A stretch of DNA of 64,000 bases from a virus: positions 64,001-128,000 of IMG/VR virus record IMGVR_UViG_3300048919_000048. The stretch is one strand, 5' to 3'. A program made the position numbers and the translations under genes. Positions within the stretch are counted from its first letter, which is position 1. Every line of letters begins with the position of its first letter. Positions 14,202-37,769 of the stretch are shown piece after piece. The notes beneath the pieces were generated by a model. That model saw nothing but the letters and a program-made list of their open reading frames with translations, had not been told where the DNA came from and searched no databases.

Positions 14202-14735
14202 TCATTTCCAAGTATTAACCCACGTACTGTCGCCATATTTCGGCAGTTGGAAGTTAATAAGGTAGTACAGTTTGTTCTTGAAGTTGATGATGACACCTTC
14301 ATCACCACACAGTTGCACGTTGCCCTCTGGTGGTGTAGGATACTGGTACTGGTCCTCACCGATAAACGCAAGGTTAATCTCCTCGCCTTCGGCAGTGACT
14401 ACGGTAAAGTAGCATTTATAGGAACGGCCCACGACATCCATAGTGGAGTCAAAATCAACGATCTGAAGAACGTCCGGCTCCTGACGGACCTCTGACTTGA
14501 TCCTTCCGTCAAGAACGGCTTTTACCGTTTTCTTCCCAACGAAGGTCCGGTAAGGGAAGCCAAACGTCTCGTCGAAGTACCAGTCCCCAGACCAAATGGC
14601 GAAGCGAAGATACAGACGTTGACGAAGAGAAAGCTGGTTCGTTAGGGCCAGCTTCATGCCCCGGTTACCCGGGACACCGAAGTCCAGATCCCCGGTCAAG
14701 GGATCGAGGAGCAGGTCTTTATATTGAGTAGCCAT
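14202..14735 (-). CDS. baseplate wedge/sheath initiator (gp25-like)
   Basis: QRLYLRF..W.GDWYFDETFGFPY motif. Confidence 0.75.
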   Translation of the reverse strand: MATQYKDLLLDPLTGDLDFGVPGNRGMKLALTNQLSLRQRLYLRFAIWSGDWYFDETFGFPYRTFVGKKTVKAVLDGRIKSEVRQEPDVLQIVDFDSTMDVVGRSYKCYFTVVTAEGEEINLAFIGEDQYQYPTPPEGNVQLCGDEGVIINFKNKLYYLINFQLPKYGDSTWVNTWK

Positions 14736-20404: not shown

Positions 20405-20779
20405 TTAACCTCCCTTAAACTTCTTGTTTCGGGCAGCGATCTCTTGATTCCTGCGAGCCTGGTCGATATCCTTCTGCTGGGCTTCCTGAACGAAGTCCTG
20501 AATATCAAGATACTCATTCTTCTTCAGAAGGTCTTCCATATCCCCGGCCTCAATGGTGAGTTCATTCACACCTTTGAATCGCTCCATCACCCGGTAAGTG
20601 AGGTAGTCGTACCATTTAAGAGATGAGTGCTTCCGTGCATACTCGATTGCCTTCTCTACTGTACTCAGCGGGATCAGATTTCCGTCTGGTTCGTCTCGTC
20701 CAGTTGATCCACCGCTCGTGCCAGCCCCAGTTTTTTGAGGAATGTGTCGATGGTCCCGAAACCGCTCTTTCCGAAAAAA
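20405..20779 (-). CDS. tail assembly chaperone, frameshift extension (GT-like)
   Basis: -1 frame overlapping upstream chaperone; T TTT TTC slippery site at 20773-20779. Confidence 0.7.
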   Translation of the reverse strand, partial: FFRKERFRDHRHIPQKTGAGTSGGSTGRDEPDGNLIPLSTVEKAIEYARKHSSLKWYDYLTYRVMERFKGVNELTIEAGDMEDLLKKNEYLDIQDFVQEAQQKDIDQARRNQEIAARNKKFKGG

Positions 20780-21147
20780 CAACCGTAGTTGACTTCAACC
20801 ACCTTACTCAGCAGAGTGATCAGGTCTTCAACGTGGTCCTCGAAAACGATGTCGATGTCGATTGGGCCACCCATGCTGTCTACTTCGATCCCTTCCAAGA
20901 GCAGGTCCAGAATCTCTTGACCGCCATCCTCAATTTGGTCGAGGATATAAAGGATCGCTGTTGGTACTGCGTCTTGCAGACCTTGACCGCCGGAGAAGGC
21001 AGAACCAGCCATTGTGCCCATCGGTACTGCCACCAGGCGACCAATCTTAGGCATATTACGAATCACTTGGCTTGGTGACCAGTGATAAATTGTAAAGCGC
21101 TTTCCGCCGCACAGAATAATGTCTGTGGACTTCTTAACCTTAAACAT
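20674..21147 (-). CDS. tail assembly chaperone (G-like)
   Basis: Start MFKVKK with AGGAG RBS; between tube and tape measure. Confidence 0.8.
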   Translation of the reverse strand: MFKVKKSTDIILCGGKRFTIYHWSPSQVIRNMPKIGRLVAVPMGTMAGSAFSGGQGLQDAVPTAILYILDQIEDGGQEILDLLLEGIEVDSMGGPIDIDIVFEDHVEDLITLLSKVVEVNYGCFFGKSGFGTIDTFLKKLGLARAVDQLDETNQTEI

Positions 21148-21218
21148 GATACACTCCTGTGTCTTCTGTTGAAAAATCCATGCCGTGAGAAAAGGCCACA
21201 TCCCTGTGGCTCACGTTG

Positions 21219-21701
21219 TTATTGGTCCAGACCAACCAGACCAGTAATGCCTGCGACAGCACCTTGGATCTGATCAGGAGACAGCCACGCATCCAGTACG
21301 CCGATTTCCCAGTCCATCTGACCAACTTCGGAACCGTAGGTCAGGTCAGGCTGTTTCTGAATCCAACCGATGGTGTTCAGGGACAGACCCTGAGAACCTT
21401 CGACTTGGACTGGCAGGTAAATCAGGCCAGTTACGTTGGCTTGGCGCTGCCACTGGGCCAGATAGCCGTTCCAAGGAGCGGTGTTCTGGAGTGACAGGGT
21501 CATTACCCCGGTGTTGTCACGGGACAGGGCGTTACTGATCTCGCCATCTACGCCCGCATGGACGGAGATGTTGTCGTTGTTACGAGAGATAACGATCTTC
21601 GTATCCGCTGCGAAGCCAGCAACACGCTGTCCACCAATGAAGACCAAGACTTTTGCCGGGTCATACGCCTGAAGCGTCAGGATTTTGGATTGGTTCAGCA
21701 T
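21219..21701 (-). CDS. tail tube protein (DUF3277-like)
   Basis: AYDPAKVLVFIGGQRVAGFA; follows sheath. Confidence 0.85.
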   Translation of the reverse strand: MLNQSKILTLQAYDPAKVLVFIGGQRVAGFAADTKIVISRNNDNISVHAGVDGEISNALSRDNTGVMTLSLQNTAPWNGYLAQWQRQANVTGLIYLPVQVEGSQGLSLNTIGWIQKQPDLTYGSEVGQMDWEIGVLDAWLSPDQIQGAVAGITGLVGLDQ

Positions 21702-21704
21702 CTA

Positions 21705-23126
21705 TTACACTCCTACAGCAGAAGAGGTCATCGGGGTCTGAGCGTTAGTGCTCTGGCCCGCCGGACGATCCAGTACAACGGCGGCGCGGATCTTGACGTA
21801 GTGCAGGGAGTTGTTGTACACAAGCTCTACCTTCACGTCACGCAGGATACGTGCAGCGAGGTCATTCGTCGGGATCTCAGCGCGTTTCGGAATGGTGATC
21901 GTCGGGTCATAAGACACTTTGTTTGTAGTGTCATAACCAGTCAGGATAGCACCGTTACGAATACCGATGTTGATCGGGTTGTTCATCAGTACAGACTTCA
22001 GAACTGGAAGGTCTTCGTCGCTCATCTTCATGGACAGGCCCATGTCAGAACGGCGTTTCATGTACGCAAACACGGATTCTTCCATACGGAACTTAACCCA
22101 GTGGGAGAAGCGAATCACGTCAACGTACTGACCGGATGAAGTTTTACCTTCGATGTAGCTACCAGTGCCGTACAGGCTGCGGTAGATGTTGGCGTTACGA
22201 GACCAAGCGTTTGAGCGCTGGGTGTCTGATCCAACAAACGGGGTCATTCCCGGCATCGTTTTCAGGTGCAGAGAGTCGCCGTATGATGGGTCGTTCGCAG
22301 CCATCGCGCCGATAACGGAACCTTCAGTGAAGCTTACGTCAGCGCCAGCATCGGAAGTTCCCAGAGAGTCGTAGCTCAGAGCCTTCAGCGTGTCAAACAC
22401 AGAAGAGGATGAGTTCTCAGGGGCGTATGCATCAGCATCCGTGGAGTTGTAGATGTGCAACTTGTAGTTCGCCTTAGCAAACTCAGCAGCAGCAACGATG
22501 TCTGCATCAGCACGGGCTTCTGTCGCCAGGAAGTACCAGTTATGGTTCTCAGCGATGACGGAAGGCAGAACAGTCGCCACGGTCTCAGCAGAGTCGTTAA
22601 CGATCTTGTAGGTGCCCGCGCCTTTACCAACGCTAACGATGTTGTCGTCAACTGCGGTCACTGTCACATAAGTGCCAGTTGCAACACCAGTAACTTTCCC
22701 GGTCAGGTCAGCATCGTTGGTGATTGCGTCTGCCAGCGCCGTAGCGATCTGGGCAGGTGTGTTGCCAGGCAGTACGTTAATTTTAACAGCCTTGACCATC
22801 TTATTCAAGGTGATATTAACGACAACCTGTTCGGTGTTTGTGGTCCCGGTGAAATCCACCTTGGTAGAGCTATTAGACATACGTCCGATACCAACACGGC
22901 GAGGGGCAAAGTTCCCTGAAAATGCGTTGGTGGCGAACTGGTACGCCGGGGAGCCTACAGCGAACCCATCAGCAACCATCCCTTCAGTGGACACGTAGTA
23001 ACGAACACGCTCTGGGAAGTTGTTGTGGATTGCCAGGAACATCGGGGTTTCAAAGCCAACGGTGTCGATTGGTTGAGTGCCAAGGCTAACCTCAACGTCA
23101 ACAACCTTGTCTTGATATTCAGCCAT
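21705..23126 (-). CDS. tail sheath protein (DUF3383-like)
   Basis: G.YVDVIRFSHW and DLAARIL motifs; 473 aa. Confidence 0.9.
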   Translation of the reverse strand: MAEYQDKVVDVEVSLGTQPIDTVGFETPMFLAIHNNFPERVRYYVSTEGMVADGFAVGSPAYQFATNAFSGNFAPRRVGIGRMSNSSTKVDFTGTTNTEQVVVNITLNKMVKAVKINVLPGNTPAQIATALADAITNDADLTGKVTGVATGTYVTVTAVDDNIVSVGKGAGTYKIVNDSAETVATVLPSVIAENHNWYFLATEARADADIVAAAEFAKANYKLHIYNSTDADAYAPENSSSSVFDTLKALSYDSLGTSDAGADVSFTEGSVIGAMAANDPSYGDSLHLKTMPGMTPFVGSDTQRSNAWSRNANIYRSLYGTGSYIEGKTSSGQYVDVIRFSHWVKFRMEESVFAYMKRRSDMGLSMKMSDEDLPVLKSVLMNNPINIGIRNGAILTGYDTTNKVSYDPTITIPKRAEIPTNDLAARILRDVKVELVYNNSLHYVKIRAAVVLDRPAGQSTNAQTPMTSSAVGV

Positions 23127-23186: not shown

Positions 23187-23894
23187 TTACTCCCCCGTCT
23201 TGTCACTGATAAGCGCTGGCTTATCAATAACCGGAGTTTCCAAACAAACCGACACGATCTTGTCGTTGTAGACGATCGGAGGATTTGGCTTTGGTGGTAG
23301 ACCAGGATCATCACCGCCGGGCTTGACACCCACGTCATAGTCTGCTTCAATACCAACAGGTGGGCCAGACGTGTTCCCGGTTTCGATCCCGATGACAATG
23401 TGCTCGATATCCTCGAACGTACCGATATCTTTCTCCACGAACGTCGTGTTGAAGGTGATAATGGTCCGCGCCCGATTCTCGAACAATTGCTGGTTCAGCG
23501 GGACACGCATTCGAGCAATATTCGATGTGGATGAGTACGCATAGGGAGAACCCGTCGGGAAGTATTTCTCACGAAGGAACGGCAGGCCGAATGCCTGATG
23601 CACCCGGGACAGTGCCCAGTGAGGTTTCCCACGGTAAGCGGTGAGGGTATAGCTGGCGGTGTAGTTGTGGGCCGTATGCACGACTCCGTCTTCATCCACC
23701 ACTTCAGCAGTTGCCCAGTCGAGAGGGGTAAGCAATGACAGGTCCACGAGGATGTAAGGCCCTTCCGGTTTTGGAATGGTCTCATCAGCTTCAACGACAT
23801 CATAGCCCGTTACGTCCAAACAGAGACGACCGATTGCCTTGGTCAGTGCTCCCATCACGACATCTGAATTTGTAAAGTCCAGAAGGTCTGCCAT
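23187..23894 (-). CDS. neck/tail terminator protein
   Basis: PKPEGPYI motif, synteny. Confidence 0.65.
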   Translation of the reverse strand: MADLLDFTNSDVVMGALTKAIGRLCLDVTGYDVVEADETIPKPEGPYILVDLSLLTPLDWATAEVVDEDGVVHTAHNYTASYTLTAYRGKPHWALSRVHQAFGLPFLREKYFPTGSPYAYSSTSNIARMRVPLNQQLFENRARTIITFNTTFVEKDIGTFEDIEHIVIGIETGNTSGPPVGIEADYDVGVKPGGDDPGLPPKPNPPIVYNDKIVSVCLETPVIDKPALISDKTGE

Positions 23895-24340
23895 TACAGA
23901 CCTCCCTCAGTTCCAACTGGAACTGCGATCAGGTAGTATCGGTAGCGAGGCACACCGGAAGACGGATACATATCTGCCTTCATCACGGTAAACCACGTCT
24001 GCCCGCCTCCGGAGTCCGGCAGCAACATCTGATCAGAAAGATGCTCTGTGCCCTCTCGTGCTCGGAACAAAAGAGTCTCAGAGTAAACGGTGTAGGAGTC
24101 ATAGTCCTCTTCACCGCCGATCATCAACTGGTTGTTCTGGTCACGGATGGCTTTGCCCCGCATCGGTTGGATAGTGCATTCAACGGCAGTGAAGGGGGTG
24201 TAAACCACCTCTCGCCCGCCGTTCAGGAACGGACTGTCAGGGTCTGTCTTGACCCACTCACGTTTCCTGCATTGCACCTCGATTCGAGGAATGAGTTTGT
24301 TACGGCTTGAGAGCAACGAATAAGCTCTTGGCATCGCCAT
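23894..24340 (-). CDS. head closure protein
   Basis: TIQPM motif, synteny. Confidence 0.6.
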   Translation of the reverse strand: MAMPRAYSLLSSRNKLIPRIEVQCRKREWVKTDPDSPFLNGGREVVYTPFTAVECTIQPMRGKAIRDQNNQLMIGGEEDYDSYTVYSETLLFRAREGTEHLSDQMLLPDSGGGQTWFTVMKADMYPSSGVPRYRYYLIAVPVGTEGGL

Positions 24341-24350
24341 CAGTCACTCC

Positions 24351-24812
24351 TTATTTGCCTTGGTACTTGACAACCTTGTACGTTGCCGCACTTGACAAGT
24401 CACCATAATGAATCATTGCGTCGTCAAACCCCTTGTAGCTCGCCCAGTCTTTTGATACCTTAGGGTTACTGAATGTCCCAGTGGAGATCGTGAAGCGAAT
24501 ACTATCTGCTGCGTCCTTTCCGATTTTCTCCAAGTAGCTACTGAAGTGGCGACCTTGGATGATCCCGTTGTGCATTCGTTTGATATGCTTCAGGAGACCT
24601 TCTTGGAAGTGCAGGGAGGTTGAGAACATGAAGTTACGCTCAGGAAGGTTATTCCAGCCTTCTTCATGGATGGCGGCAAGAGTCGCCATGTTCAGCCCAG
24701 AATAGTGTTTCTCGTCGTAAAAACCAGATTCCACTTCTTTCTCAGCTAAATCAGAGAGTTGGCTGAAATACCGCTTCAGTTCAGAGATGTCGGTGAACGA
24801 CTTCTTTGCCAC
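24351..24812 (-). CDS. neck/tail completion protein
   Basis: ATLAAIHEEG..LPERNFM motif. Confidence 0.7.
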   Translation of the reverse strand: MAKKSFTDISELKRYFSQLSDLAEKEVESGFYDEKHYSGLNMATLAAIHEEGWNNLPERNFMFSTSLHFQEGLLKHIKRMHNGIIQGRHFSSYLEKIGKDAADSIRFTISTGTFSNPKVSKDWASYKGFDDAMIHYGDLSSAATYKVVKYQGK

Positions 24813-24874
24813 GGTATTTCCCCATGAAAGTTATTTTACCACATTAGGTTAGCAAAAGCAACAAAGTCAACGCT

Positions 24875-25402
24875 TTAGCGAACCATCCAAGGACTGCGTC
24901 TCGCTTGGCTGCAAGGCCATGCTGACTGCTTAGGGATCGCCGGGGTTGGATACACACCCTGTTCCATAAAGCCGTTCACAGAGTTAGGGTTGTTCTTCAC
25001 ACGGAAGAATTCATCTTTACGTACACCACCAATGATCACGAGGGCATTGTTGAATCCAAGGGATGGGTCAACATAATCCGGGTTCAGTTCGAGCCAGTCA
25101 AGGAAGTCTTTCCATGATTCCCAGCTTGATCCGCCTTTGATGGAAATAGTCTCGTCACCGATTTTCTCGAATCGCTCACGAATAGATGAAGCACCGCTGG
25201 AAACTTCCTGAACAATCAACCAACGGACGCAGTCAACGACGGTGTTGTACAGGGCCAGTGGGGTTTTATCCGGGTTGTTGTCCAAGTCATACGTCAACTT
25301 CCACTTGGTCCAGAAGAAGAGGATCGTCGCATCCGAAATCTCCTCGGTGGTGATACCACCCAAGAGCATACGGACGATCTCAATTACTTGTTCGTCGGTC
25401 AT
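24875..25402 (-). CDS. head-tail adaptor protein
   Basis: VRMLLGG..ISDA..EKIGDETIS; synteny. Confidence 0.65.
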   Translation of the reverse strand: MTDEQVIEIVRMLLGGITTEEISDATILFFWTKWKLTYDLDNNPDKTPLALYNTVVDCVRWLIVQEVSSGASSIRERFEKIGDETISIKGGSSWESWKDFLDWLELNPDYVDPSLGFNNALVIIGGVRKDEFFRVKNNPNSVNGFMEQGVYPTPAIPKQSAWPCSQARRSPWMVR

Positions 25403-25498: not shown

Positions 25499-26308
25499 TT
25501 AGTTGGTGTACAACTTGATTTGAACTTCAAGGAATGTTAAGTTCATATCAACCCCGGTGGTATTGACAAGCCACAGGGTACAACCATCCACAGTAAAGGG
25601 GTCGGTTACGGTGTGGGTCCAAGAGTCCAAGGAGATTGCACCCCTGTCCAGTGATGTACCGGAAACCTTTACCCTCGTGGCTGCTGCCAGTTGAGTTGTA
25701 CCGTCGGCACGACGCAAGTCAACACGCCATTCACGGGCTTGGTTAGCACCGCCTGACAGTTCGCCTTGAAGTCGAACAACAAATCGGACATCTCGCCAGC
25801 CGTCCACTGCTGGGAACTTGGCTACCCCAGTCGAGGAATTGAAATCAATCTGTGCGTTACTGTCCGCCAACAGTGCCCAACCAGGCGCGGTCCCGATGTT
25901 AAGGGACTGTCCATTTGTGATGGTGATTGCGTTAGTTGTTCTTCGAACATCAATGCTGAAGACGGCACCATCATCTCCCGCCGGGCCTTGTGTTCCTTGA
26001 GTCCCTTGCGGACCTTGGATTCCCTGAATACCTTGGTCGCCTTTATCTCCTTTCGGCCCAGTAGCACCAGTCAGTCCAGTGTCTCCCTTCAGACCTTGTT
26101 CACCCGCCGGGCCTGTAGGGCCTGCCGGGCCAATTGGTCCTTGGGGTCCTGGGTCGCCAGGGTCTCCCTTATCCCCTTTTGGTCCCACAGTTCCTCCCCC
26201 GGAACCGATCGAGGCAAAAGGAATCATCGTCTCTGACTGGAGGTCATACAATGCATACCCAAAGTATACACCGTTTTGCTCTCCCGTAATACCTCTTAGT
26301 GTTGCCAT
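25499..26308 (-). CDS. collagen-like fibre/decoration protein
   Basis: Continuous Gly-X-Y run followed by beta domain. Confidence 0.8.
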
Positions 26309-26351: not shown

Positions 26352-26747
26352 TTATGCTCCCGGAGCAAACAATCCTGTAGCCCTGATAGCAGCTAGCAGA
26401 TTGTTGAAATCCGCCATTGTCGGATCAGCGGTGATATTTGGGAAATCTCCTTGGAGAACCCCACCACGCTGTGTTGTAGTTGGAACCTTATTCCCAGCCA
26501 TTGCTGTGGTTCCAGTTGTACCGATAACAAGGTCGGATGTTCCAGCGCCGATCGCTGAACGGGCAGTAGCTTGGTCTGCCCCAGCCGCGATAACAGCAGG
26601 TTTGTCAGTCACGTCAGCCCATGCTACAGAGCCGCCGCCACCGCTGCCTTCAAAAAGTTCAGTCAGGGTTTTAGTTTCCCCGGTTGCCTGATCCATGATC
26701 TGGTAACCAGTCAGTGTGCCGAGTGATGCACCGCCAATTGCTGCCAT
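26352..26747 (-). CDS. head fibre/decoration protein
   Basis: WADVTDKP, ARSAIGAGTS, RGGVLQ..DFNNLLAAIRATG motifs. Confidence 0.7.
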   Translation of the reverse strand: MAAIGGASLGTLTGYQIMDQATGETKTLTELFEGSGGGGSVAWADVTDKPAVIAAGADQATARSAIGAGTSDLVIGTTGTTAMAGNKVPTTTQRGGVLQGDFPNITADPTMADFNNLLAAIRATGLFAPGA

Positions 26748-26748
26748 G

Positions 26749-27399
26749 TTATTCTCCTACAAAAGTAGTTGGGACTTCAGGGATGTCTGTGATGACAGAG
26801 GTGTCGTACACAGATTTTACGTAGGCCAGGAGGTTTTGGTGGACCTTCCCGGTTGCGACCATAATCGCATCAATCTTCGCCACTGCGTCTGCGGAAGGCA
26901 AAGTAAGGGTTGAAAAATCCGTTTTACGGATTAGAATGTCTTTGTCAGGATGGGCTTGAGCATACGCCTTGATGGTGTCGAGGTTGATAAGCTCACGAGG
27001 CTCAACCGAGAAAGTATCCCCGTCAACAGTTACCCCGGCAGACAGGTCTGCGGTATACTGCTGGTAGGCACGGCTACGATGATCTTCTTTGGCCCGGACC
27101 AAGTTCTCTGCGATCTCTTCAGGATAGAAATCACGAGCTACCCAAGTCTTGTACCAGAGGTCATCGTCAGGATTTAGTTTGGGAGTTCCCTCTGTGACAA
27201 CATCACCGACAGGGATCTCTGAGTCATGAACCATGCAATAACCCCACAGGTCACGCATGTCAGCTTCCCATACATAAGAGCCGATACTGACGTTGGTATG
27301 CTCTTTCAGGAAGTCACTGAGGTAAACGGGGTATTTCATGTCGGACATGCGAATCATCGGTGTCCAAGCATAAACCTTGCTGGTAGGATCTACAGCCAT
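26749..27399 (-). CDS. fibre-associated/chaperone protein (DUF4376-like)
   Basis: Start MAVDPTSK with AGGAG RBS; GVTVDGDTF; follows long fibre. Confidence 0.6.
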   Translation of the reverse strand: MAVDPTSKVYAWTPMIRMSDMKYPVYLSDFLKEHTNVSIGSYVWEADMRDLWGYCMVHDSEIPVGDVVTEGTPKLNPDDDLWYKTWVARDFYPEEIAENLVRAKEDHRSRAYQQYTADLSAGVTVDGDTFSVEPRELINLDTIKAYAQAHPDKDILIRKTDFSTLTLPSADAVAKIDAIMVATGKVHQNLLAYVKSVYDTSVITDIPEVPTTFVGE

Positions 27400-27437: not shown

Positions 27438-30400
27438 TTAGTCTACAGTCATCGCCTGAACACCCGTCAGGTCCGTGCCGTCCCAGAAGAACGTCAGGAT
27501 GGTACGGGTTGTACCAAGCGCAGGCTGGGTTCCGTTTGACCAAGCCATCGGGGTAGGCCACGTCATAGAGCCGCCTTTACCGATGAACTTAACAACTACC
27601 GTCATCGCACGGCCTGCTGGCAGGTTGGAGATGGTAATTGTCTTGGACGTGGTTCCGTCAACGGTGAACACGTTAGACACAGCAGCATCCAGCGCACCAG
27701 TGGCAGACATCACACGGAGGTCGTAACGGTCAAGCTTCTTCCACGCACCGTTTGAACGGACGTAGTAGCCGGAATCCTGAGGCGCTTCAAGAACGCTGAT
27801 CAGTGTCCAGTCACCGTCGATACGGGAATACTGCTTACCATCCTTAGGTGCATCGTAGACGTTACCACCACCCATGTGGCCCAGAGAACCCCAAGTGGTT
27901 GCGTTTGTCTTCAGGAAGAACTCAAGGGTAGAGGAGTTCAGGAAGTAATCCCCGACACGTCCATCAGCAGGGGTAGGGTTACGGGCAAACACGATCCACA
28001 AGGAACCTTGGTCACCTTTATCACCTTTAACACCCTGAGGTCCGGTAGGACCTGTGTTACCTTGAGGACCAGTAGGTCCGATTGGACCTTGGATAGGACC
28101 CAAGTTTTCGTAGGCAGAACCCGTCCAACCCCAGAAATCGCCATCGATCAGGTAACCCTGTCCCAGCGTCCCGGTTGGCGGCAGTTCAGAACTGCTGTTC
28201 AGCTTACCGATGATTTCTACACCCGGACCCATGTCACCTTGAGGACCCTGAGGACCGATATCCCCCTTGTCACCCTTAGGACCTTGTGCCCCAGTGGCAC
28301 CAGTTTCACCTGTGGCACCTGTAGGACCAACTGGACCACGAACAACGCCCATGTTAACCCAAGTGCTGCCGTTCCAAGAGAAGCCTGTTCCGGTGTCCTC
28401 GGTCACGTAGTAATCACCGACGGTGTTACCAGATGACGGCAGGGAGCCTTGGTTAGGGACAGTCCCTTTAGGGATTACTCCTGCACCATTATCGCCAGTG
28501 TCGCCCTTCGGACCAGCAGGTCCGGTATCACCAGTGTCGCCTTTAGGTCCGGTGTTACCACGTGCCATCCCGGTATTAACCCACTGGAGGCCGTCCCAAG
28601 CAAATCCTTCACCTGTGTCAACAGTTGTCCAGAAGTCACCCTTCACGTTGTCGGTGGTAGGGAGGGAAGCTTCGTTAGGAACAGTGCCTTTCGGATTCAG
28701 GCCAGTACCTTGTGGACCAACGTCACCTTGGTCACCTTTTGGACCTTGTTCGCCCGCCGGGCCAGCAGGTCCGGTAGCGCCAGTGTCACCTTTAGGCCCG
28801 GCTGGACCCTGCGCTCCAGTATCACCCTTCGGACCACGAACTGGTCCAACGTTCTGCCATGCAGTACCGTTAAAGATGTACAGGTCGTCACCGATCAGCC
28901 ATGCATCACCCGTCACCGGATTTGCAGGAAGATCTGCTTCGCTCGCTTTCTCACCAAGGATAGCTACACCTTCACCAACAGGACCTTGAGGACCTGTCAG
29001 GCCAGTGTTACCACGTGGACCCTGAGGGCCAGTGTCACCTTTTGCACCTTTCAGGCTGGCAAGATATTCGTTCAGCGAACCTGTGAATCCAGCTTCAACC
29101 GCAAGAGCATAGTTGTCCTTACCAGTTGCGCCCGGGTCGCCTTTCACGCCCTGAGGGCCTTGAGGGCCAGTATCGCCCGTATCACCTTTAGGGCCTTGGA
29201 ATGCCCCGAGGTTCTCCCAGTTTCCGTTACCAGTTGATACCCAAACATCCGTGCCGATCAGGTATGCATCACCTGCATCTGCTCCGGCAGGGAGACTACC
29301 TTCGTCTGCTACCTTACCGAGAATGTTGATGGCGTTGGCGTTTGTACCGTCTACACCGGGATCACCCTTATCGCCCTTCGGCCCGGTTGGTCCGGTTGGT
29401 CCGATGAGAGAGTTCAGGAAGTCAACCTGAGAACCAGTGTGACCGTTATCCAGCCAAACCTGATACGCAGACTTACCTTCCGGCCCGACTTGGCCTACAG
29501 TTTGCCATTTATCGGTGTCACCTGTCCAGACATACATCTTGTCTTGGATGATGTAGCAATCGCCGTTGCTGTTGCCTTCCATTGGGAGGAAGGATGGATC
29601 AGGGAAAGATCCGAGGATCTGGAGACCGATGCCGTCAGCCCCTTTCAGGGAACTCAGCCATTCGTCCTCTGTCCCAACGAAGCCTGCGTTAACTGCGACT
29701 TCATACGCAGACAGACCCTGAGGACCAGCAAAGCTGCCGAGGTTTTTCCACTGCTTAACGCCACCCTCTTCTACCACCGTCCAGAAGTTCTGGTTGATGA
29801 CGTAAGTGTCGCCGAGTTCCATATCCGCAACTGGTGGCAACTGGGTAACATCACTCAGTTGGTCGATGACGTTGATGCCGATCCCTGCTGGGCCTTTAGG
29901 ACCTTCCGGACCACGGGCACCCTGTGCCCCGGCTGGGCCAGCGGGACCTGTTGCACCTTGAGGGCCAGTTTCGCCCTGAGGACCTTGTGGTCCTGTCAAA
30001 CCTTCTGGGCCTTCCGGACCCTGTGGTCCTGTTGGACCAATCGGACCTTGCGGCCCGGTAGCACCAGTGTCGCCCTTATCACCCTTGACAGTCTCGACGA
30101 AAATACCGTCAGACTTCATCTCGATCTTGTTCGCCGGGTCAGCAGAGATTTTGGTCTCTTGCGGGCGAACATACATAGCGCCTTGGCGGATTTCGAGCAT
30201 GTTGTCCTGTGCAGTGGACACAGGGACATTCAGGCCAGCAGAACCAGCCTTCAGGGCGTTCTGAGCACTTGGATCAACAATCACATCAATCTGAGTCTTG
30301 GCCTTCCCGGTAGGGTCAGCTTTGATATCCAGAGTCTTGTTTGGTGACGTGGTTGATACGTTGACAGGATCGGAGTATACTCCTTCCAGCGCTGGGTTAC

Positions 30401-30719
30401 CAGCGTTAGCTGCATCCTGTGCAGAAATGTACGTTACCGTGTTCCCTTCTTTTGAGGAAATCTTGGTGTCGGAACTTCCAACAAAGAGGCCCTGTTCGTC
30501 TGAGGAGCTTACCACCTGGAGGCGGTTACCTGCACGACGGGATACGTTGACATTTGCCAGAAGAGGAGAGGATTGAGTACCATCACCGATCAGTGTGGTA
30601 GATACGGTGTCTTGTGTCTCGATCCCCGTGAAAGGGGCACCAGACCCACCTGAGGTGCTCGTAGAAGGATCTGGTACGGTAACCAGTACCTCTACGACCT
30701 TATCTTCGTATTGTGCCAT
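27438..30719 (-). CDS. long collagen-repeat fibre protein
   Basis: Gly-X-Y blocks alternating with about six LP..GD.Y..W.G..W.N.G knobs and three G.SAY..A..GF.G..L.SL.G modules. Confidence 0.85.
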   Translation of the reverse strand: MAQYEDKVVEVLVTVPDPSTSTSGGSGAPFTGIETQDTVSTTLIGDGTQSSPLLANVNVSRRAGNRLQVVSSSDEQGLFVGSSDTKISSKEGNTVTYISAQDAANAGNPALEGVYSDPVNVSTTSPNKTLDIKADPTGKAKTQIDVIVDPSAQNALKAGSAGLNVPVSTAQDNMLEIRQGAMYVRPQETKISADPANKIEMKSDGIFVETVKGDKGDTGATGPQGPIGPTGPQGPEGPEGLTGPQGPQGETGPQGATGPAGPAGAQGARGPEGPKGPAGIGINVIDQLSDVTQLPPVADMELGDTYVINQNFWTVVEEGGVKQWKNLGSFAGPQGLSAYEVAVNAGFVGTEDEWLSSLKGADGIGLQILGSFPDPSFLPMEGNSNGDCYIIQDKMYVWTGDTDKWQTVGQVGPEGKSAYQVWLDNGHTGSQVDFLNSLIGPTGPTGPKGDKGDPGVDGTNANAINILGKVADEGSLPAGADAGDAYLIGTDVWVSTGNGNWENLGAFQGPKGDTGDTGPQGPQGVKGDPGATGKDNYALAVEAGFTGSLNEYLASLKGAKGDTGPQGPRGNTGLTGPQGPVGEGVAILGEKASEADLPANPVTGDAWLIGDDLYIFNGTAWQNVGPVRGPKGDTGAQGPAGPKGDTGATGPAGPAGEQGPKGDQGDVGPQGTGLNPKGTVPNEASLPTTDNVKGDFWTTVDTGEGFAWDGLQWVNTGMARGNTGPKGDTGDTGPAGPKGDTGDNGAGVIPKGTVPNQGSLPSSGNTVGDYYVTEDTGTGFSWNGSTWVNMGVVRGPVGPTGATGETGATGAQGPKGDKGDIGPQGPQGDMGPGVEIIGKLNSSSELPPTGTLGQGYLIDGDFWGWTGSAYENLGPIQGPIGPTGPQGNTGPTGPQGVKGDKGDQGSLWIVFARNPTPADGRVGDYFLNSSTLEFFLKTNATTWGSLGHMGGGNVYDAPKDGKQYSRIDGDWTLISVLEAPQDSGYYVRSNGAWKKLDRYDLRVMSATGALDAAVSNVFTVDGTTSKTITISNLPAGRAMTVVVKFIGKGGSMTWPTPMAWSNGTQPALGTTRTILTFFWDGTDLTGVQAMTVD

Positions 30720-30777
30720 TACTTACTTCTCCGGGGAAGGGATGGGAGAGATGGCCCCGTGAAGGGGCCGGAGGGAA

Positions 30778-31380
30778 TTACAGTGCAGCTTTCAGATCTT
30801 CCAACATTGCATCGAAAGTCTTAGCCTTGCTCAGGGAGATTCCCAGAGTCAGGGCGTAGGATTCCAGAGCGGCCTTTGCAGCAGCTTTCTTGGTATCGTC
30901 ACGCAGAGTTTCTGCATGGGCGAGGATCTCTGCCTTTTCTTCATCAGTGCGAGAAGAAACAGCTTTTTCCTCAACTTCTTCCTTGACTTCTGACGTTGGT
31001 TCGATTACAGTTGTCTGTACCAAACCAGCGAGAGGAGAAACTTCCTCAACGTCAGGAGGGATAACGTTGGCGCGGGCCACACGGATCTCTTCGACATTCG
31101 CCAAGAATTTCTCTGGGGTCTTAGGTGTCTCATGGAAGAAAATGAGGAACGCCGCACCCTTACGGACAGAGGCGACAGTGTTGATTCCCAACGCCGTCAT
31201 TTCCTCGATCTGAGTCAGGAATTCATACAGGTTACGGCCCATGACGAGTTCATTGTCATAGGAATAAAGGAAAGGTGCCAGGCGGGCTGATGCATCTACA
31301 TCCAGTTTCGGCAGGTATTGACCGAAGAACTTCAGCATGTGATATTCGCTCTGGAACACTTCCATATGCGGTTGTGCCAT
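30778..31380 (-). CDS. hypothetical virion-associated protein
   Basis: AGGAG RBS; downstream of capsid gene. Confidence 0.7.
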   Translation of the reverse strand: MAQPHMEVFQSEYHMLKFFGQYLPKLDVDASARLAPFLYSYDNELVMGRNLYEFLTQIEEMTALGINTVASVRKGAAFLIFFHETPKTPEKFLANVEEIRVARANVIPPDVEEVSPLAGLVQTTVIEPTSEVKEEVEEKAVSSRTDEEKAEILAHAETLRDDTKKAAAKAALESYALTLGISLSKAKTFDAMLEDLKAAL

Positions 31381-31500: not shown

Positions 31501-32499
31501 TTATGCAGTGAACTTACCTGTTGACTTAACAACCAGTTCAGGACGGTTGTTTACGGTCAGGAAGGAAGTCTCAGATTCGATCTTCGCTTCACGCAGGTAG
31601 TTGGACTCTTTGAAGAACACGTACAGTTCCTGAGCCACCTGGTTTGCATCACGCAGGGTGTCGCTCGGAGCGTAGTAGATCTCGAACATACGAGAGATAC
31701 CACGTGGGAAGATATACGCTTCACCTGCCGGGATGTTACCGGAGATATCTTCGATGAACAGGATGTTCTTGTGTTCGAAGATACGGTTGTTAGCGTTACC
31801 GCCCAGACGACGACGCAGCATTTCCTGAGTGGATGGGTACTGAGAGTACGCACCAGTCACCTGTGGGTGAGCGATCAGAGCGGAGAACCACTGACGGGAC
31901 GCCAGAACGACGATCTCGTAGTTGTCACCGTTGTCACCAGCCCAGTCGATGATGTGAGCACGAGCTTCAGCTTCCAGAACCTCGATTGGGTCAACACCCA
32001 GTTTGGTGAAGTCTACGTCAGCCGTAGTCTGGGTTGCACCCCAAACGTCGTAGTAGTCGTAGTCACAGGTCGGGTCATCCGGAGACCAAGAGGTGCCCTT
32101 CAGAGCAGCATACATGGCTTTGGACTTCAGGATCGCATGGCTGCGACGGATACGTGCCATGTGGCGCTGAACTTCAGCGTCAACCGTGGCTGGGGCGTTC
32201 TCGGTGCCGAACTCACGGAAGTTCTGGATATCAGCACGGTCGATGGAACGGTCCAGTGGGAAGAACGGAATGTTCAGGTTGATGATCTTTTTACGATCGT
32301 TCGCCAGGTGCTGACGTACACCACCACGCTGAACAGCCTTGATGTCACCAGCGCCGTCATCACGACGCTCGATACGAGCCACAGTGGTACGACCATAGTG
32401 TTCGGAGAACAGGTTCATGCTCTGGAGCAGAGTGTCCACACGTGGCATGGTAGAGATCAGGCCAGTGTAGTCAAGAATCTGGAAATCACCGTTTTGCAT
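31501..32499 (-). CDS. major capsid protein (Phage_cap_E-like)
   Basis: IPFFPLD..I..ADIQ and ESETSFLTVNNRPELV motifs. Confidence 0.9.
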   Translation of the reverse strand: MQNGDFQILDYTGLISTMPRVDTLLQSMNLFSEHYGRTTVARIERRDDGAGDIKAVQRGGVRQHLANDRKKIINLNIPFFPLDRSIDRADIQNFREFGTENAPATVDAEVQRHMARIRRSHAILKSKAMYAALKGTSWSPDDPTCDYDYYDVWGATQTTADVDFTKLGVDPIEVLEAEARAHIIDWAGDNGDNYEIVVLASRQWFSALIAHPQVTGAYSQYPSTQEMLRRRLGGNANNRIFEHKNILFIEDISGNIPAGEAYIFPRGISRMFEIYYAPSDTLRDANQVAQELYVFFKESNYLREAKIESETSFLTVNNRPELVVKSTGKFTA

Positions 32500-34739: not shown

Positions 34740-36263
34740 TTAATTATCCAAATTAGCCGCTGAATTATCCCGTGCAGCAGAGATTTTACCAGTACCGTTA
34801 CCGGAAGAACCCTTCGTCATGCCGTCCCCGGCGCGACTGGTATCTTCTCCCAACAGCTTCATGAGTCCCTCTTGAGAAATGTCTTCCTCAATCTTCTCAT
34901 CAATGCCCAGAACTTCAAGAACACGGTTGATAACCTTAGGAGTCTTCGGCAGGTAGCCAACGGCACCGATACGCTGAATCGCCTTAGAGAAACCTTCCAT
35001 GTCTACGTCCACAATCTCCCCAGCCTTGACGTATGGCATCTCTGTCTCTGGGAGGCGGATGTCATTCAGGGCCAGCAGTTGTGGCAGCAGGTTTTCGTTC
35101 AGAGCTTCCAGAATGATCTCGTTTACACGCTGAACAAACTGGGTGTGGATGGTCTGTTTTGACTCAGACAGGTTGTAAGAACCGCCCTTGTCGTTACCCA
35201 CGTTGATGAATCCAGCACCGAGGCGGTCAAGGATGGACTTCTTACGGTCGCTAATCAACTGTGCGGTACTGTACTGCTTGCCCATCCCATCGATCCCTTT
35301 CAGGGTCATGGAATACTGAGGGGCGTTGTCCTTGGTGTCAGAAGGCAGCATGAAGAATGACTGCTCACCAGAGTGGGCGTTTGCAGCATCTTCCATCAGG
35401 CCACGAACCATCTCCGCTTCCGGGGAGGACGGGTCCATAGCCGCCTTGTTAAGGATCTGGGAAGGGATCTTCAATTCGATCACACCGCCCATGTCCTTGG
35501 TGGCACCAACGACTTCGAGGTTCTCAATCAGAATCTTTTCACGCCAGGCGCGGTAACATCCTACCAGGGGTGATACGCCGAGAGCTTGGGAGGAAGAACC
35601 ACCCGTATTCATGAGCATCACACGGTTGATAGGGATGATTACGTCACTCATCCGGGTGGATGTACCACCAACGCCGATTTCGCTGGCTGTGTAGTTCTGG
35701 AAAGCCGACAGGGATTGTTTTACACCGACGATAGCAGAACCATCTTCGTTATAGACAATCGGGTTTGTACGGCTCAGTGAAGCTTGTGGTCGGAAAGCAA
35801 GGTTTTTAATCTTGTACTTGCCGATGTATTCTCCAACTGTTACCTGCGTGTAGACTTTCTCCACAACGGACAGGCCATACTCGTTGAATGTCGCAGCATC
35901 ACGGGCGAACTGGCGGAGGGTCTGACCATCCATGTTCTTCAGGCAATACTCGACGAACTTAGCAGCCTTTTTGGACTCCTCAGATTCACCAGGGATTACC
36001 TTGAAGTCCTTGAACGCTTTTTCCACGAAAGTGTACAGCATGTCAAGGCCAGTCGCAACAGTCGCATCCTGCTTCATGGATTCAACTGTGCCGATCAGGT
36101 TAGGCCAGCGGATCTCTTCCGCCTTCATACGTTCTGAGTCAACCTGAACCTTTGCCAAAGCAAAAGTCCCCTGCTCACTCATACGCATACGGGATACGTT
36201 GACCTGTTCGCTGGTGGCCTTAGCCACACGAACTTGGCGATTACGATTACGTTTTCTTGACAC
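34740..36263 (-). CDS. portal protein
   Basis: YGLSVVEKVY, GSYNLSE motifs; follows TerL. Confidence 0.9.
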   Translation of the reverse strand: MSRKRNRNRQVRVAKATSEQVNVSRMRMSEQGTFALAKVQVDSERMKAEEIRWPNLIGTVESMKQDATVATGLDMLYTFVEKAFKDFKVIPGESEESKKAAKFVEYCLKNMDGQTLRQFARDAATFNEYGLSVVEKVYTQVTVGEYIGKYKIKNLAFRPQASLSRTNPIVYNEDGSAIVGVKQSLSAFQNYTASEIGVGGTSTRMSDVIIPINRVMLMNTGGSSSQALGVSPLVGCYRAWREKILIENLEVVGATKDMGGVIELKIPSQILNKAAMDPSSPEAEMVRGLMEDAANAHSGEQSFFMLPSDTKDNAPQYSMTLKGIDGMGKQYSTAQLISDRKKSILDRLGAGFINVGNDKGGSYNLSESKQTIHTQFVQRVNEIILEALNENLLPQLLALNDIRLPETEMPYVKAGEIVDVDMEGFSKAIQRIGAVGYLPKTPKVINRVLEVLGIDEKIEEDISQEGLMKLLGEDTSRAGDGMTKGSSGNGTGKISAARDNSAANLDN

Positions 36264-36281: not shown

Positions 36282-37769
36282 TTAATAACGTCGTGAAGCG
36301 TACAAAGTAGGGGCATTTGGTCGAGGAATAGCGACGGCGCGGACAACCTCGGTCTTCTCCAGGAAGTTAATTCCTGATGCCACGGCATCCGCCCAGTCAT
36401 CCTTACGGGACCCAGTAGAACGCTCACCGTTGAAAGCTTCAAGCTCTTTCATCAGGGCGATATACGTGTCCATCGGGAATGACTTTTTGACGATCCGGAC
36501 AAATCCGTTTTGAGCCAATTGGGCGAACGGAGAGAAGCGGGTAAGCTTCGATTTGTTACCGGGCGTCGGGTCTTTTTCCACCAAGTACCCTTTGGAGATA
36601 AGATCTCTGGATGACGTTGTAAACTCAGAAATACCTGCTTGGCCCGGGTCAACGGAGAAGATGATGATTGTATCGTCACCATCAATGATCGCCTGTTTGG
36701 TGATCAGTACATCACGCTCGCCAGCCTTTTTACAAAAGCGGCCTGCGGTCCCGGTAGACCATTCACCGTCGTCGATGAAGTCTTCATGGTAATCTCCGAA
36801 CAGGTAGTAAAACCCGTCGTCATCACGCGCCACACCGATCCCGGCAGTGAAGTCGGGGGTCTTGTTAGCTGTGGAGCGCTCCGTGCCTGCCTTATCGTAA
36901 GCACGTACTTTAGTGACGTTCAGTGGGAGGCAATCAACCTCTTTCAGGAACTCACGTTTGAAATAGTTTGCACCTTCCGGGCGGGCATCCCAGTTGCCGT
37001 GAAGCAGACGGGCGCGGTCAACGTCGTTCAGACCTTCCAACTGGGCAAGGTATTCCGGGTTGTTGATCAGCATCGGAGGGTTGTCGTAAATGGTGGAAGA
37101 GATGAAGCTGAAAGATACCGGGCGAGTTTTCTTGCCGTATCTCTCTTGGAGTTCTTCCTTGGTGGCACCCCAAATGTAGTTGTCGTCAATACGGACAAAC
37201 CAGCGGATGACACCGTCACGCTCTGGGATCGGGAAGCCGTTCTCGTCCAGATACCAGTCAATCATTTCCCGGAGTTTGTGATCCGGGTCCGGGTTACAAG
37301 AGATAACCATGCGGGAAGGATATTTCGAGCCAGAACGCAAACGAGACATCATGTACTCAAGCTGTTCCCACTCAAACTGTGTTCCTTCGTCCACGCCGAT
37401 GAAAGTAAATTCCAGACCCTGGATGTTGTACTTATCGTTGATATGCTGCATGGACTGCCACTTCACCGTCGCCCCGTTAGGGAACGTCGCAATCATCTCG
37501 TTCTCTTTGAACTTCGGCTTGACGATTGGTGGAAGCTGGTTGTAAATATCTTTAGCCTTGTCGAACAGACCGCCCTGACCACGAATCTGAGGCACTGTAC
37601 GGCGGAACATGATACATGCTGTACGAGGATCGTCTACGATCAGGAGCGGCATCAACTGGAGCAGGTAAGACTTACCTGAACCTGCTGCACCACCCATGAC
37701 GAGGATCTGGGCCTTGGATTCGAGAACCATCTGTTGCTTACGGCTCGCAGGTGCGAACGTAGCTGACAT
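36282..37769 (-). CDS. terL: terminase large subunit
   Basis: GGAAGSGKS Walker A, IGVDE Walker B, SCNP, KDDWADA nuclease motif. Confidence 0.95.
   Translation of the reverse strand: MSATFAPASRKQQMVLESKAQILVMGGAAGSGKSYLLQLMPLLIVDDPRTACIMFRRTVPQIRGQGGLFDKAKDIYNQLPPIVKPKFKENEMIATFPNGATVKWQSMQHINDKYNIQGLEFTFIGVDEGTQFEWEQLEYMMSRLRSGSKYPSRMVISCNPDPDHKLREMIDWYLDENGFPIPERDGVIRWFVRIDDNYIWGATKEELQERYGKKTRPVSFSFISSTIYDNPPMLINNPEYLAQLEGLNDVDRARLLHGNWDARPEGANYFKREFLKEVDCLPLNVTKVRAYDKAGTERSTANKTPDFTAGIGVARDDDGFYYLFGDYHEDFIDDGEWSTGTAGRFCKKAGERDVLITKQAIIDGDDTIIIFSVDPGQAGISEFTTSSRDLISKGYLVEKDPTPGNKSKLTRFSPFAQLAQNGFVRIVKKSFPMDTYIALMKELEAFNGERSTGSRKDDWADAVASGINFLEKTEVVRAVAIPRPNAPTLYASRRY

What the first reader, a model, noticed from the sequence alone, without database searches (positions are those of the whole stretch)
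30681..30719. Collagen fibre N-terminus copies the tail sheath N-terminal arm
Seen: fibre MAQYEDKVVEVLV versus sheath (23126) MAEYQDKVVDVEV, 9/13 identical plus three conservative swaps, with six of the identical residues on different synonymous codons. A Ser/Thr/Gly linker follows. Established: contractile sheath subunits interlock by donating terminal arms to neighbours' beta-sheets, leaving vacant sites at end rings. Inference: the fibre anchors to the tail by mimicking that arm and might be released or repositioned on contraction. With the socket and tip genes, this outlines a sheath-anchored, tip-swappable fibre system I do not recognise as described.
Basis: partly seen in the sequence, partly recalled or inferred. 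Interest (0 to 1): 0.8.

Follow-up and report, generated by a model that had tools for sequence, protein, structure and literature searches.

The report
Phage fibre copies sheath linking strand
A long collagen-like fibre of this phiTE/CR3-type phage starts with a conserved copy of the short strand that tail-sheath subunits use to clip onto each other, which probably fastens the fibre to the tail, although no published structure shows where it docks.

Summary
The 1093-aa collagen fibre (27438-30719, minus strand) starts MAQYEDKVVEVLV and the sheath (21705-23126) starts MAEYQDKVVDVEV: 9/13 identical, and six of the identical residues use different codons. It is the best non-self match to the sheath arm in the whole 152-kb genome (BLOSUM62 42 against 23 for the next).

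The window is a Certrevirus-like myophage. In phiTE cryo-EM, sheath residues 3-15 are strand S4 of the four-stranded hinge ("handshake") sheet. The motif Y-x-D-K-V-V-E-V/A-x-V is kept in 24 of 24 distinct fibre N-termini, down to 45% identity and in Seunavirus-type phages. The 13-17-residue Gly/Ser/Thr/Pro linker behind it is hypervariable. Jumbo-phage homologues keep the fibre C-terminus and its partner gene but have other N-termini.

The tail terminator carries a weaker third copy, which phiTE cryo-EM places in an S4 site. A complex model puts fibre residues 2-16 beside sheath strand S3 (score 0.77, best control 0.00), which may only reflect the likeness.

The docking site is unknown.

The mimicry is not in the papers I read. 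Earlier runs of this scan found it on other genomes.

The parts
30672..30719 (-). Fibre codons 1-16 (MAQYEDKVVEVLVTVP): S4-like strand ending in a conserved proline
   Evidence: Y4, D6, V8 and V9 are invariant, K7 is 23/24, V13 22/24 and P16 23/24 in 24 distinct fibre N-termini.
30633..30671 (-). Flexible linker (residues 17-29, DPSTSTSGGSGAP) between the strand and the first conserved shaft motif F-x-G-I
   Evidence: the stretch between the 10-residue motif and F-x-G-I (residues 14-29 here) is 13-17 residues long, has 37% mean pairwise identity against 81% for the strand, and is 76% G/S/T/P/A.
27438..30719 (-). Collagen-like fibre gene, 1093 aa, with eight Gly-X-Y blocks (95 triplets) alternating with small modules. 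Homologue of phiTE_215, CB7_10 and W70_131.
   Evidence: Pfam Collagen 1.8e-32. PHROG 3904, 1232 bits, aligned only from residue 18. Gly-X-Y map. The protein is in virions of CB7 and W70 by mass spectrometry (PMC7344957, PMC11370258).
23082..23126 (-). Sheath codons 1-15: the N-terminal arm, strand S4 of the hinge sheet
   Evidence: S4 = E3-L15 in phiTE (PMC11972413, read). Full-length match to chain 9cb9_A (E 1.2e-288).
21705..23126 (-). Tail sheath gene (DUF3383 type), 473 aa
   Evidence: PHROG 205, PDB 9cb9, family survey.
23238..23276 (-). Third, weaker S4-like copy (IVYNDKIVSVCLE, terminator residues 207-219) in the C-terminal extension of the tail terminator
   Evidence: Tied for next-best genome-wide match to the sheath arm (score 23). 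[quoted passage not shown] It matches chain 9cc7_F.
23187..23894 (-). Tail terminator gene, 235 aa, with a 76-residue tail after the conserved FEDIE motif (three strands in phiTE)
   Evidence: Pfam Phage_tail_terminator_9, PDB 9cc7_F, tail comparison.
26749..27399 (-). Partner gene of the fibre (phiTE_216 homologue, PHROG 4998), probably a DUF4376-like fibre assembly or tip protein tied to the fibre's C-terminal domain
   Evidence: Atlas feature hit to DUF4376 clusters at 0.94 (lead only). It sits beside fibres with the same C-terminus in Vequintavirinae and in jumbo phages EL, Ea35-70 and Psa21. It is a virion protein in CB7 and W70.
14202..14735 (-). Sheath initiator (gp25-like), the other protein that offers a sheath-type hinge sheet
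   Evidence: PHROG 4233 and PHROG 120 baseplate wedge subunit. Role as in phiTE and phi92 (PMC11972413, PMC13450770).

Best explanation
Residues 2-16 of the collagen-like fibre are a selected copy of the sheath's S4 'handshake' strand. A flexible 13-17-residue linker tethers this strand to a trimeric, roughly 100-nm beaded collagen shaft. The strand is most likely the fibre's attachment element. It would add itself as an edge strand to a sheath-type hinge sheet, pairing with the S3 C-terminal arm of one sheath subunit and packing on the inner-domain helix of another, as the sheath's own arm and the terminator's C-terminal mimic do. Shown: the likeness, its statistical weight, its deep conservation against a hypervariable linker, its loss where the same fibre family uses other N-termini, and an in-virion precedent. 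Inferred: that it binds at all, and where. The site (neck end, baseplate end or sheath initiator, or a displaced sheath arm) is not known.
For: (1) It is the unique best match to the sheath arm in the genome, 42 against 23, at the same offset from the start. (2) The motif is kept in 24/24 distinct fibre N-termini: Certrevirus, SSBI34, W70/UPEC06, Kashira/ABPH49/ChuuTotoro, PVP-SE1, 4MG, Av-05 and metagenomic relatives. Synonymous changes run through it. The strand has 81% mean identity against 37% for the linker. (3) In an unbiased scan of 37 sheath loci, every locus with a long fibre gene upstream had that fibre's N-terminus as its best non-self match to its own sheath arm (scores 29-49). Loci without the fibre had nothing above 24. 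(4) No Pfam domain lies in residues 1-210, and PHROG 3904 aligns only from residue 18. Jumbo-phage homologues share the C-terminus and partner gene but have unrelated N-termini. The N-terminus therefore behaves as a swappable anchor. (5) Precedent in the same virion type: the terminator's weaker copy (5/13) is seen by cryo-EM in the S4 position (PMC11972413). The fibre and terminator copies share a proline at position 16 and a non-polar residue at position 12 (L in the fibre, C in the terminator), where the sheath has Gly and a polar residue. (6) Complex model of two sheath copies (residues 17-473) with fibre 1-60: ipSAE 0.77, best of 3 controls 0.00. In calibration, 58 of 80 solved complexes and 2 of 110 mismatched pairs reached the mark. 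Partner pLDDT was at least 46 and contact agreement at least 48%. Fibre residues 2 and 4-16 touch 442-452 (S3) of one copy and helix 328-356 plus 425, 427 and 437 of the other. Because the peptide is about 70% identical to the true arm, this pass shows likeness and does not prove that this copy binds.
Against: The phiTE paper reports all hinge sheets as four-stranded and filled by sheath, terminator and initiator strands, so there is no obvious empty socket. The fibre is not modelled in any PDB entry. Only an 'unmodelled third fibre' near the baseplate is mentioned, and equating it with phiTE_215 is my inference (RefSeq has exactly three 'tail fiber protein' genes). There is no tight co-variation of the fibre and sheath arms: Kashira's sheath has KPV while its fibre keeps KVV. 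The length of the terminator tail does not correlate with fibre presence. All evidence is computational.
Confidence: 0.55

Rival explanations
1. The strand anchors the fibre, but to a site other than the canonical S4 position of a hinge sheet. One candidate is the place on the neck where phiTE's displaced ring-1 sheath arms are 'pinned'. Another is a beta-sheet edge of a terminator, head-completion, baseplate or capsid protein.
For: All S4 sites are reported filled in phiTE, and the ring-1 arms adopt an alternate, pinned conformation, so a second binding site for this sequence exists. The gene lies between capsid and neck genes. Position 12 is hydrophobic and position 10 is Glu in fibres but not in sheaths, which hints at a somewhat different environment. 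The authors say sheath D3 domains contact tail fibres in phiTE.
Against: The conserved positions are exactly those conserved in the sheath arm (Y4, D6, K7, V8, V9, V11, V13). The complex model places the strand beside S3. No other protein N-terminus in the genome resembles it.
Confidence: 0.2
2. The copy is not an anchor but a regulator. It would compete for S4 sites to cap or time sheath polymerisation, couple fibre binding to the contraction pivot, or share an assembly factor with the sheath.
For: S4 is the pivot of contraction. The terminator's copy is thought to 'cement' the top rings. Fibre-less relatives (rV5, KP12, phi92) build working tails, so the site is dispensable.
Against: The fibre is an abundant virion protein: 39 unique peptides in CB7 and the highest spectrum count among the W70 proteins shown in the table excerpt I read. 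It needs some attachment element and has no other candidate. The flexible linker suits a tether.
Confidence: 0.1
3. The likeness is chance, or a neutral relic of a past recombination between the two gene starts.
For: It covers only 13 residues of valine-rich, strand-prone sequence.
Against: The score is far outside the genome-wide distribution. The codons differ. There is no upstream DNA likeness. The motif is conserved across genera while the adjacent linker drifts freely.
Confidence: 0.03

Closest known systems
phiTE tail terminator C-terminal extension (pTE221, PDB 9cc7; Hodgkinson-Bean et al. 2025, PMC11972413)
   Same: A non-sheath protein carries a terminal strand resembling the sheath N-arm (Y-x-D-x-I/V-x-x-V) and inserts it in the S4 position of the hinge sheet. 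The homologue here (23187-23894) has the same motif.
   Different: The terminator's copy is C-terminal, weaker (5/13), part of a ring protein with fixed 6-fold stoichiometry, and seen by cryo-EM. The fibre's copy is N-terminal, much closer (9/13), sits on a trimeric fibre behind a flexible linker, and has not been seen.
Sheath initiator gp25/TssE-type handshake and the sheath-sheath handshake itself (phi92 gp139/gp130, PMC13450770)
   Same: The same four-stranded sheet built by strand donation between chains.
   Different: These proteins offer or exchange strands as part of the core machine. Here an accessory fibre would borrow the interface.
Neck-anchored whiskers and fibres: T4 fibritin (wac) and the Bas63/XM1 collar-whisker complexes (PMC12609058)
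   Same: Trimeric accessory fibres encoded beside neck genes that run along the tail and touch the long tail fibres. The estimated length here (95 Gly-X-Y triplets, about 82 nm, plus modules) is near the roughly 102-nm tail.
   Different: Those attach through folded N-terminal domains or a dedicated collar protein. No collar gene or folded anchor was found here. The Fibritin_C hit is below Pfam's cut-off (20.4 against 21 bits).
phiTE_215 / CB7_10 / W70_131 / PVP-SE1 gp068 (PHROG 3904 'tail fiber protein')
   Same: Orthologues with the same gene position, the same N-terminal motif and the same partner gene.
   Different: None of substance. In the papers I read they are only called a collagen-domain tail fibre or virion protein, without an attachment mode.

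Membership tests
Handshake (hinge-sheet) S4-strand mimics, as defined by the phiTE terminator extension | Sequence likeness to the cognate sheath N-terminal arm beyond chance | tested here: met
   Score 42 against a next-best 23 in 193,175 windows. It is the best non-self hit in every fibre-bearing locus.
Handshake (hinge-sheet) S4-strand mimics, as defined by the phiTE terminator extension | The strand lies at a chain terminus, free to be donated | tested here: met
   Residues 2-16 of the protein, followed by a 13-17-residue G/S/T/P-rich linker.
Handshake (hinge-sheet) S4-strand mimics, as defined by the phiTE terminator extension | Purifying selection on the strand in relatives | tested here: met
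   24/24 distinct N-termini keep Y4, D6, V8 and V9. Synonymous changes occur within the strand. The strand has 81% identity against 37% for the linker.
Handshake (hinge-sheet) S4-strand mimics, as defined by the phiTE terminator extension | Physically occupies the S4 position next to S3 in a hinge sheet | tested here: inconclusive
   The complex model puts it beside S3 (442-452) with ipSAE 0.77 against 0.00 for controls, but this may come from likeness alone. No solved structure contains the fibre, and phiTE's sheets are reported as full.
Collagen-like phage fibre (Pfam PF01391; PHROG 3904) | Gly-X-Y triple-helix repeats and a full-length match to the family profile | tested here: met
   Collagen 1.8e-32 with 6 stretches. 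PHROG 3904, 1232 bits over residues 18-1092. 95 triplets in 8 blocks.
T4 fibritin-type whisker | C-terminal foldon / Fibritin_C domain above the curated cut-off | tested here: not met
   PF07921 scored 20.4 bits against a cut-off of 21, with no stretch passing on its own.
DUF3383-type contractile sheath (the protein being copied) | Full-length homology to a solved sheath with a defined S4 arm | tested here: met
   9cb9_A at 1.2e-288 over residues 1-473. PF11863 appears on many homologues.

The most novel reading that the evidence does not exclude
A whole family of accessory fibres (Certrevirus, Septuagintavirus, Seunavirus, Avunavirus and relatives) is fastened to the contractile tail by handshake mimicry. 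A 13-residue N-terminal strand plugs into, or displaces a sheath arm from, the very beta-sheet that pivots during contraction. Fibre attachment and sheath mechanics would then be physically coupled, and some S4 strands in published maps may belong to the fibre.
Probability: 0.3. Interest if true: 0.8.

Novelty: new variant of a known kind. Interest (0 to 1): 0.6.

Why it matters
Where accessory fibres attach is one of the least resolved parts of myophage structure, and the phiTE atlas leaves this abundant fibre unmodelled. If a 13-residue tag is enough to dock a protein on a contractile sheath, three things follow. It explains how fibre modules are exchanged: the same shaft and C-terminus appear in jumbo phages with other N-termini. 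It gives a concrete hypothesis for re-reading the deposited maps. It offers a small portable tag for displaying cargo on phage tails or tailocins. It would also extend handshake mimicry from core proteins (terminator, initiator) to accessory proteins.

Tried and rejected
I therefore could not fetch contigs for the metagenomic fibres.

(2) The search for related loci with the fibre N-domain as a single protein found only CR3 and phiTE. The sheath alignment A1 reached 39 loci instead.

(3) I searched three jumbo-phage records for Pfam Phage_sheath_1, to ask whether their fibres copy their own sheath arms. It found nothing, so that test was not done. Their N-termini are unrelated to each other and to the fibre here.

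(4) Co-variation between the fibre and sheath arms: there is none beyond shared consensus. This is neither for nor against the reading, since both would bind the same conserved site.

(5) Correlation of terminator tail length (one, two or three strands) with fibre presence: there is none.

(6) The phi92 and Bas63 structure papers have no homologous fibre. phi92 encodes only gp125 between the capsid and adaptor genes.

(7) The phiTE paper's supplements, which hold the mass-spectrometry table and the third-fibre figure, are not held.

I redid it from files.

(9) BLASTP between the two small anchor-plus-linker proteins at 26352-26747 and 25499-26308 found no likeness, although both hit PHROG 21621.

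Full report
**What is there.** The window is part of a 151,943-bp phage genome. Its structural module is about 85% identical in DNA to Certrevirus phages such as phiTE, CR3, CR8 and vB_ExiM_F1M1E. All the genes below lie on the minus strand:

| Coordinates | Gene |
|---|---|
| 36282-37769 | terminase |
| 34740-36263 | portal |
| 31501-32499 | major capsid protein |
| 30778-31380 | 200-aa protein |
| 27438-30719 | collagen fibre, 1093 aa |
| 26749-27399 | fibre partner gene |
| 26352-26747 and 25499-26308 | two small anchor-plus-linker proteins |
| 23894-25402 | neck proteins |
| 23187-23894 | tail terminator |
| 21705-23126 | sheath |
| 21219-21701 | tube |
| 20674-21201 | chaperone |
| 17743-20178 | tape measure |
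| below 17700 | baseplate, including the gp25-like sheath initiator at 14202-14735 |

**The observation.**
- The two N-termini read MAQYEDKVVEVLV (fibre) and MAEYQDKVVDVEV (sheath): 9/13 identical with three conservative swaps.
- Six of the nine identical residues use different codons. The DNA upstream of the two starts is unrelated.
- I scored the sheath arm against all 193,175 six-frame 13-mers of the genome. The fibre start scores 42. The next best scores are 23 (mean -11.8, sd 7.1). One of those tied at 23 is IVYNDKIVSVCLE, in the C-terminal tail of the tail terminator.
- Both the sheath and fibre copies begin at residue 2.
- The fibre's ATG is the first start after a stop and has GGAG 9 nt upstream.

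**What the copied peptide is.** The sheath matches the solved phiTE sheath (9cb9) over its whole length (E 1.2e-288). The phiTE paper (PMC11972413) makes the following points:
[quoted passage not shown] S1 and S2 come from one subunit. S3 is the C-terminal arm of a second subunit. S4 is the N-terminal strand E3-L15 of a third.
- S4 is the pivot of contraction.
- The terminator's C-terminal extension gives three strands. One replaces S4 between rings 1 and 2, and the ring-1 arms are displaced into a pinned conformation.

The fibre therefore copies exactly S4. The terminator copy I found by sequence is the one already seen by cryo-EM (chain 9cc7_F).

**Conservation.**
- Fibre homologues from 87% down to 45% identity in the N-domain keep the motif. 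These are phiTE, CR3, POP15, F1M1E, SSBI34, W70, UPEC06, Kashira, ABPH49 and ChuuTotoro. Fifteen clusters from the large protein collection keep it too.
- The more distant fibres of PVP-SE1, 4MG and Av-05, and a 1110-aa metagenomic fibre, also start with Y-x-D-K-V-V.
- Over 24 distinct N-termini, Y4, D6, V8 and V9 are invariant. K7 is 23/24, V13 is 22/24 and P16 is 23/24.
- The ten-residue motif has 81% mean pairwise identity. The following 13-17-residue linker has 37% and is 76% G/S/T/P/A. The next conserved block has 66%. Synonymous substitutions run through the strand.
- In a blind scan of 37 sheath loci from viral contigs, every locus with a long fibre gene upstream had that fibre's start as its best non-self match to its own sheath arm (scores 29-49). 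Fibre-less loci (rV5-like, Klebsiella, Aeromonas) had nothing above 24. phAPEC8 and PWH3a-P1 also have nothing.

**Family-specific differences.**

| Position | Fibre | Sheath |
|---|---|---|
| 10 | Glu (20/24) | Asp (79/88) |
| 12 | Leu/Ile/Phe (19/24) | mostly polar |
| 16 | Pro (23/24) | Gly (86/88), leading into domain D4 |

The terminator's verified mimic also has Pro at position 16, and has Cys at position 12. This speaks for long independent evolution under similar constraints and against gene conversion. It also suggests that both mimics leave the sheet in the same way.

**The N-terminus is a module.**
- The partner gene (phiTE_216 homologue) and the fibre's C-terminal domain recur together in jumbo phages: EL ORF156/154, Ea35-70 298/297 and Psa21 gp201/202. 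The N-termini of those fibres are unrelated.
- PHROG 3904 aligns to our protein only from residue 18. No Pfam domain is found in residues 1-210.
- The partner looks like DUF4376 tail-fibre assembly proteins by language-model features (0.94). This is a lead, not a test.
- The only conserved element available for attachment in the Vequintavirinae fibres is therefore the S4-like strand.

**Model.** I folded two copies of the sheath lacking its own arm (residues 17-473, alignment A1) with fibre residues 1-60 (alignment A2).
- The score was 0.77 (ipSAE, median of three runs). The best of three controls was 0.00.
- In the tool's calibration the mark was reached by 58 of 80 solved complexes and 2 of 110 mismatched pairs.
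- Partner pLDDT was at least 46 and contact agreement at least 48%.
- Fibre residues 2 and 4-16 touch residues 442-452 of one sheath copy, which is S3. They also touch helix 328-356 and residues 425, 427 and 437 of the other copy. This is what an S4 strand should do.
- The peptide is about 70% identical to the true arm, so the pass shows compatibility and likeness. It does not show that the fibre binds.

**Where would it dock?** This is the weak point.
- The phiTE authors state that the hinge sheet is four-stranded in every ring. The terminator supplies strands at the two head-proximal rings and the initiator at the baseplate.
- The fibre is in no PDB entry. The paper speaks only of an unmodelled 'third putative fiber previously annotated', which the upward-bent long tail fibre may touch. 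RefSeq NC_020201 has exactly three 'tail fiber protein' genes (215, 236, 241), so the third fibre is probably 215. That is my inference.
- Possible resolutions: the strand displaces a sheath arm, as the terminator does; it binds sub-stoichiometrically and is averaged out; it was modelled as sheath; or it uses the site where the ring-1 arms are pinned.
- Seunavirus and Avunavirus terminators have only a 19-residue tail, enough for one strand. That could leave the top ring's fourth position open. However, fibre presence does not track terminator tail length.
- Estimated fibre length: 95 Gly-X-Y triplets give about 82 nm, and the modules add more (rise per residue from my own knowledge). This is close to the roughly 102-nm tail, so a fibre anchored at either end could reach the other.

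**The fibre is real and abundant.** CB7_10 gave 39 unique peptides. W70_131 had the highest spectrum count among the proteins in the table excerpt I read, and gives a visible gel band.

**Novelty.** Handshake mimicry by terminators and initiators is published. I found no mention of the fibre's copy in the phiTE, CB7, P7_Pc, W70, phi92, Bas63 or RBPseg papers, nor in a full-text search. Earlier runs of this scan noted the same feature on other genomes and reached similar conclusions. I saw the first of these notes, just after I had found the terminator copy and read the phiTE paper, and the notes on other genomes only, after my tests.

**Verdict.** The anchoring reading is the best available (about 0.55), but it is unproven and its site is unknown.

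Noticed in passing
window 26352-26747 (-) and 25499-26308 (-): Two small virion-type proteins share one design: a short N-terminal anchor of about 35 aa, a Gly-rich linker (GSGGGG / SGGGT) and a variable C-terminal module. The first is 74% identical over residues 1-34 to phiTE_217, which the phiTE paper assigns as its hexamer-centre 'Pagoda' capsid decoration, and then diverges completely. The second carries collagen repeats. Relatives have different genes at this spot (CR3 gp010/011, F1M1E), so the distal modules look swappable.
   Followed up: partly
window 26749-27399 (-); L017:6007-6675, L018:5980-6681, L019:6004-6675: The fibre's partner gene (PHROG 4998) recurs next to fibres with the same C-terminal domain in the jumbo phages EL, Ea35-70 and Psa21. 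It resembles DUF4376 tail-fibre assembly proteins by Atlas features (0.94). It is found in CB7 and W70 virions, so it may stay on the fibre tip.
   Followed up: partly
L019:213-818 (Pseudomonas phage Psa21 gp199): This gene is annotated 'tail sheath' in RefSeq but is only 201 aa. Its N-terminus is a paralogue of the N-terminus of the neighbouring 1496-aa fibre gp201, so it is probably a second fibre sharing the same anchor and is misannotated.
   Followed up: no
window 6960-8687 (-): The long tail fibre homologue (PHROG 4549) ends in a domain (residues 449-574) that matches PHROG 15437. The middle of the collagen fibre hits the same PHROG. This hints at module exchange between the two fibre classes, or a shared tip.
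   Followed up: no
window 5755-6921 (-): An RCC1 / beta-propeller repeat protein is encoded right after the long tail fibre. The W70 paper lists RCC1-like proteins among its virion proteins.
   Followed up: no
window 30733-30760: A GC-rich hairpin (GGCCCC-TTCA-CGGGGCC on the coding strand) sits between the 200-aa gene and the fibre start, without a clear T-run. It may be a processing or attenuation signal that sets the fibre's expression apart from the capsid gene.
   Followed up: no
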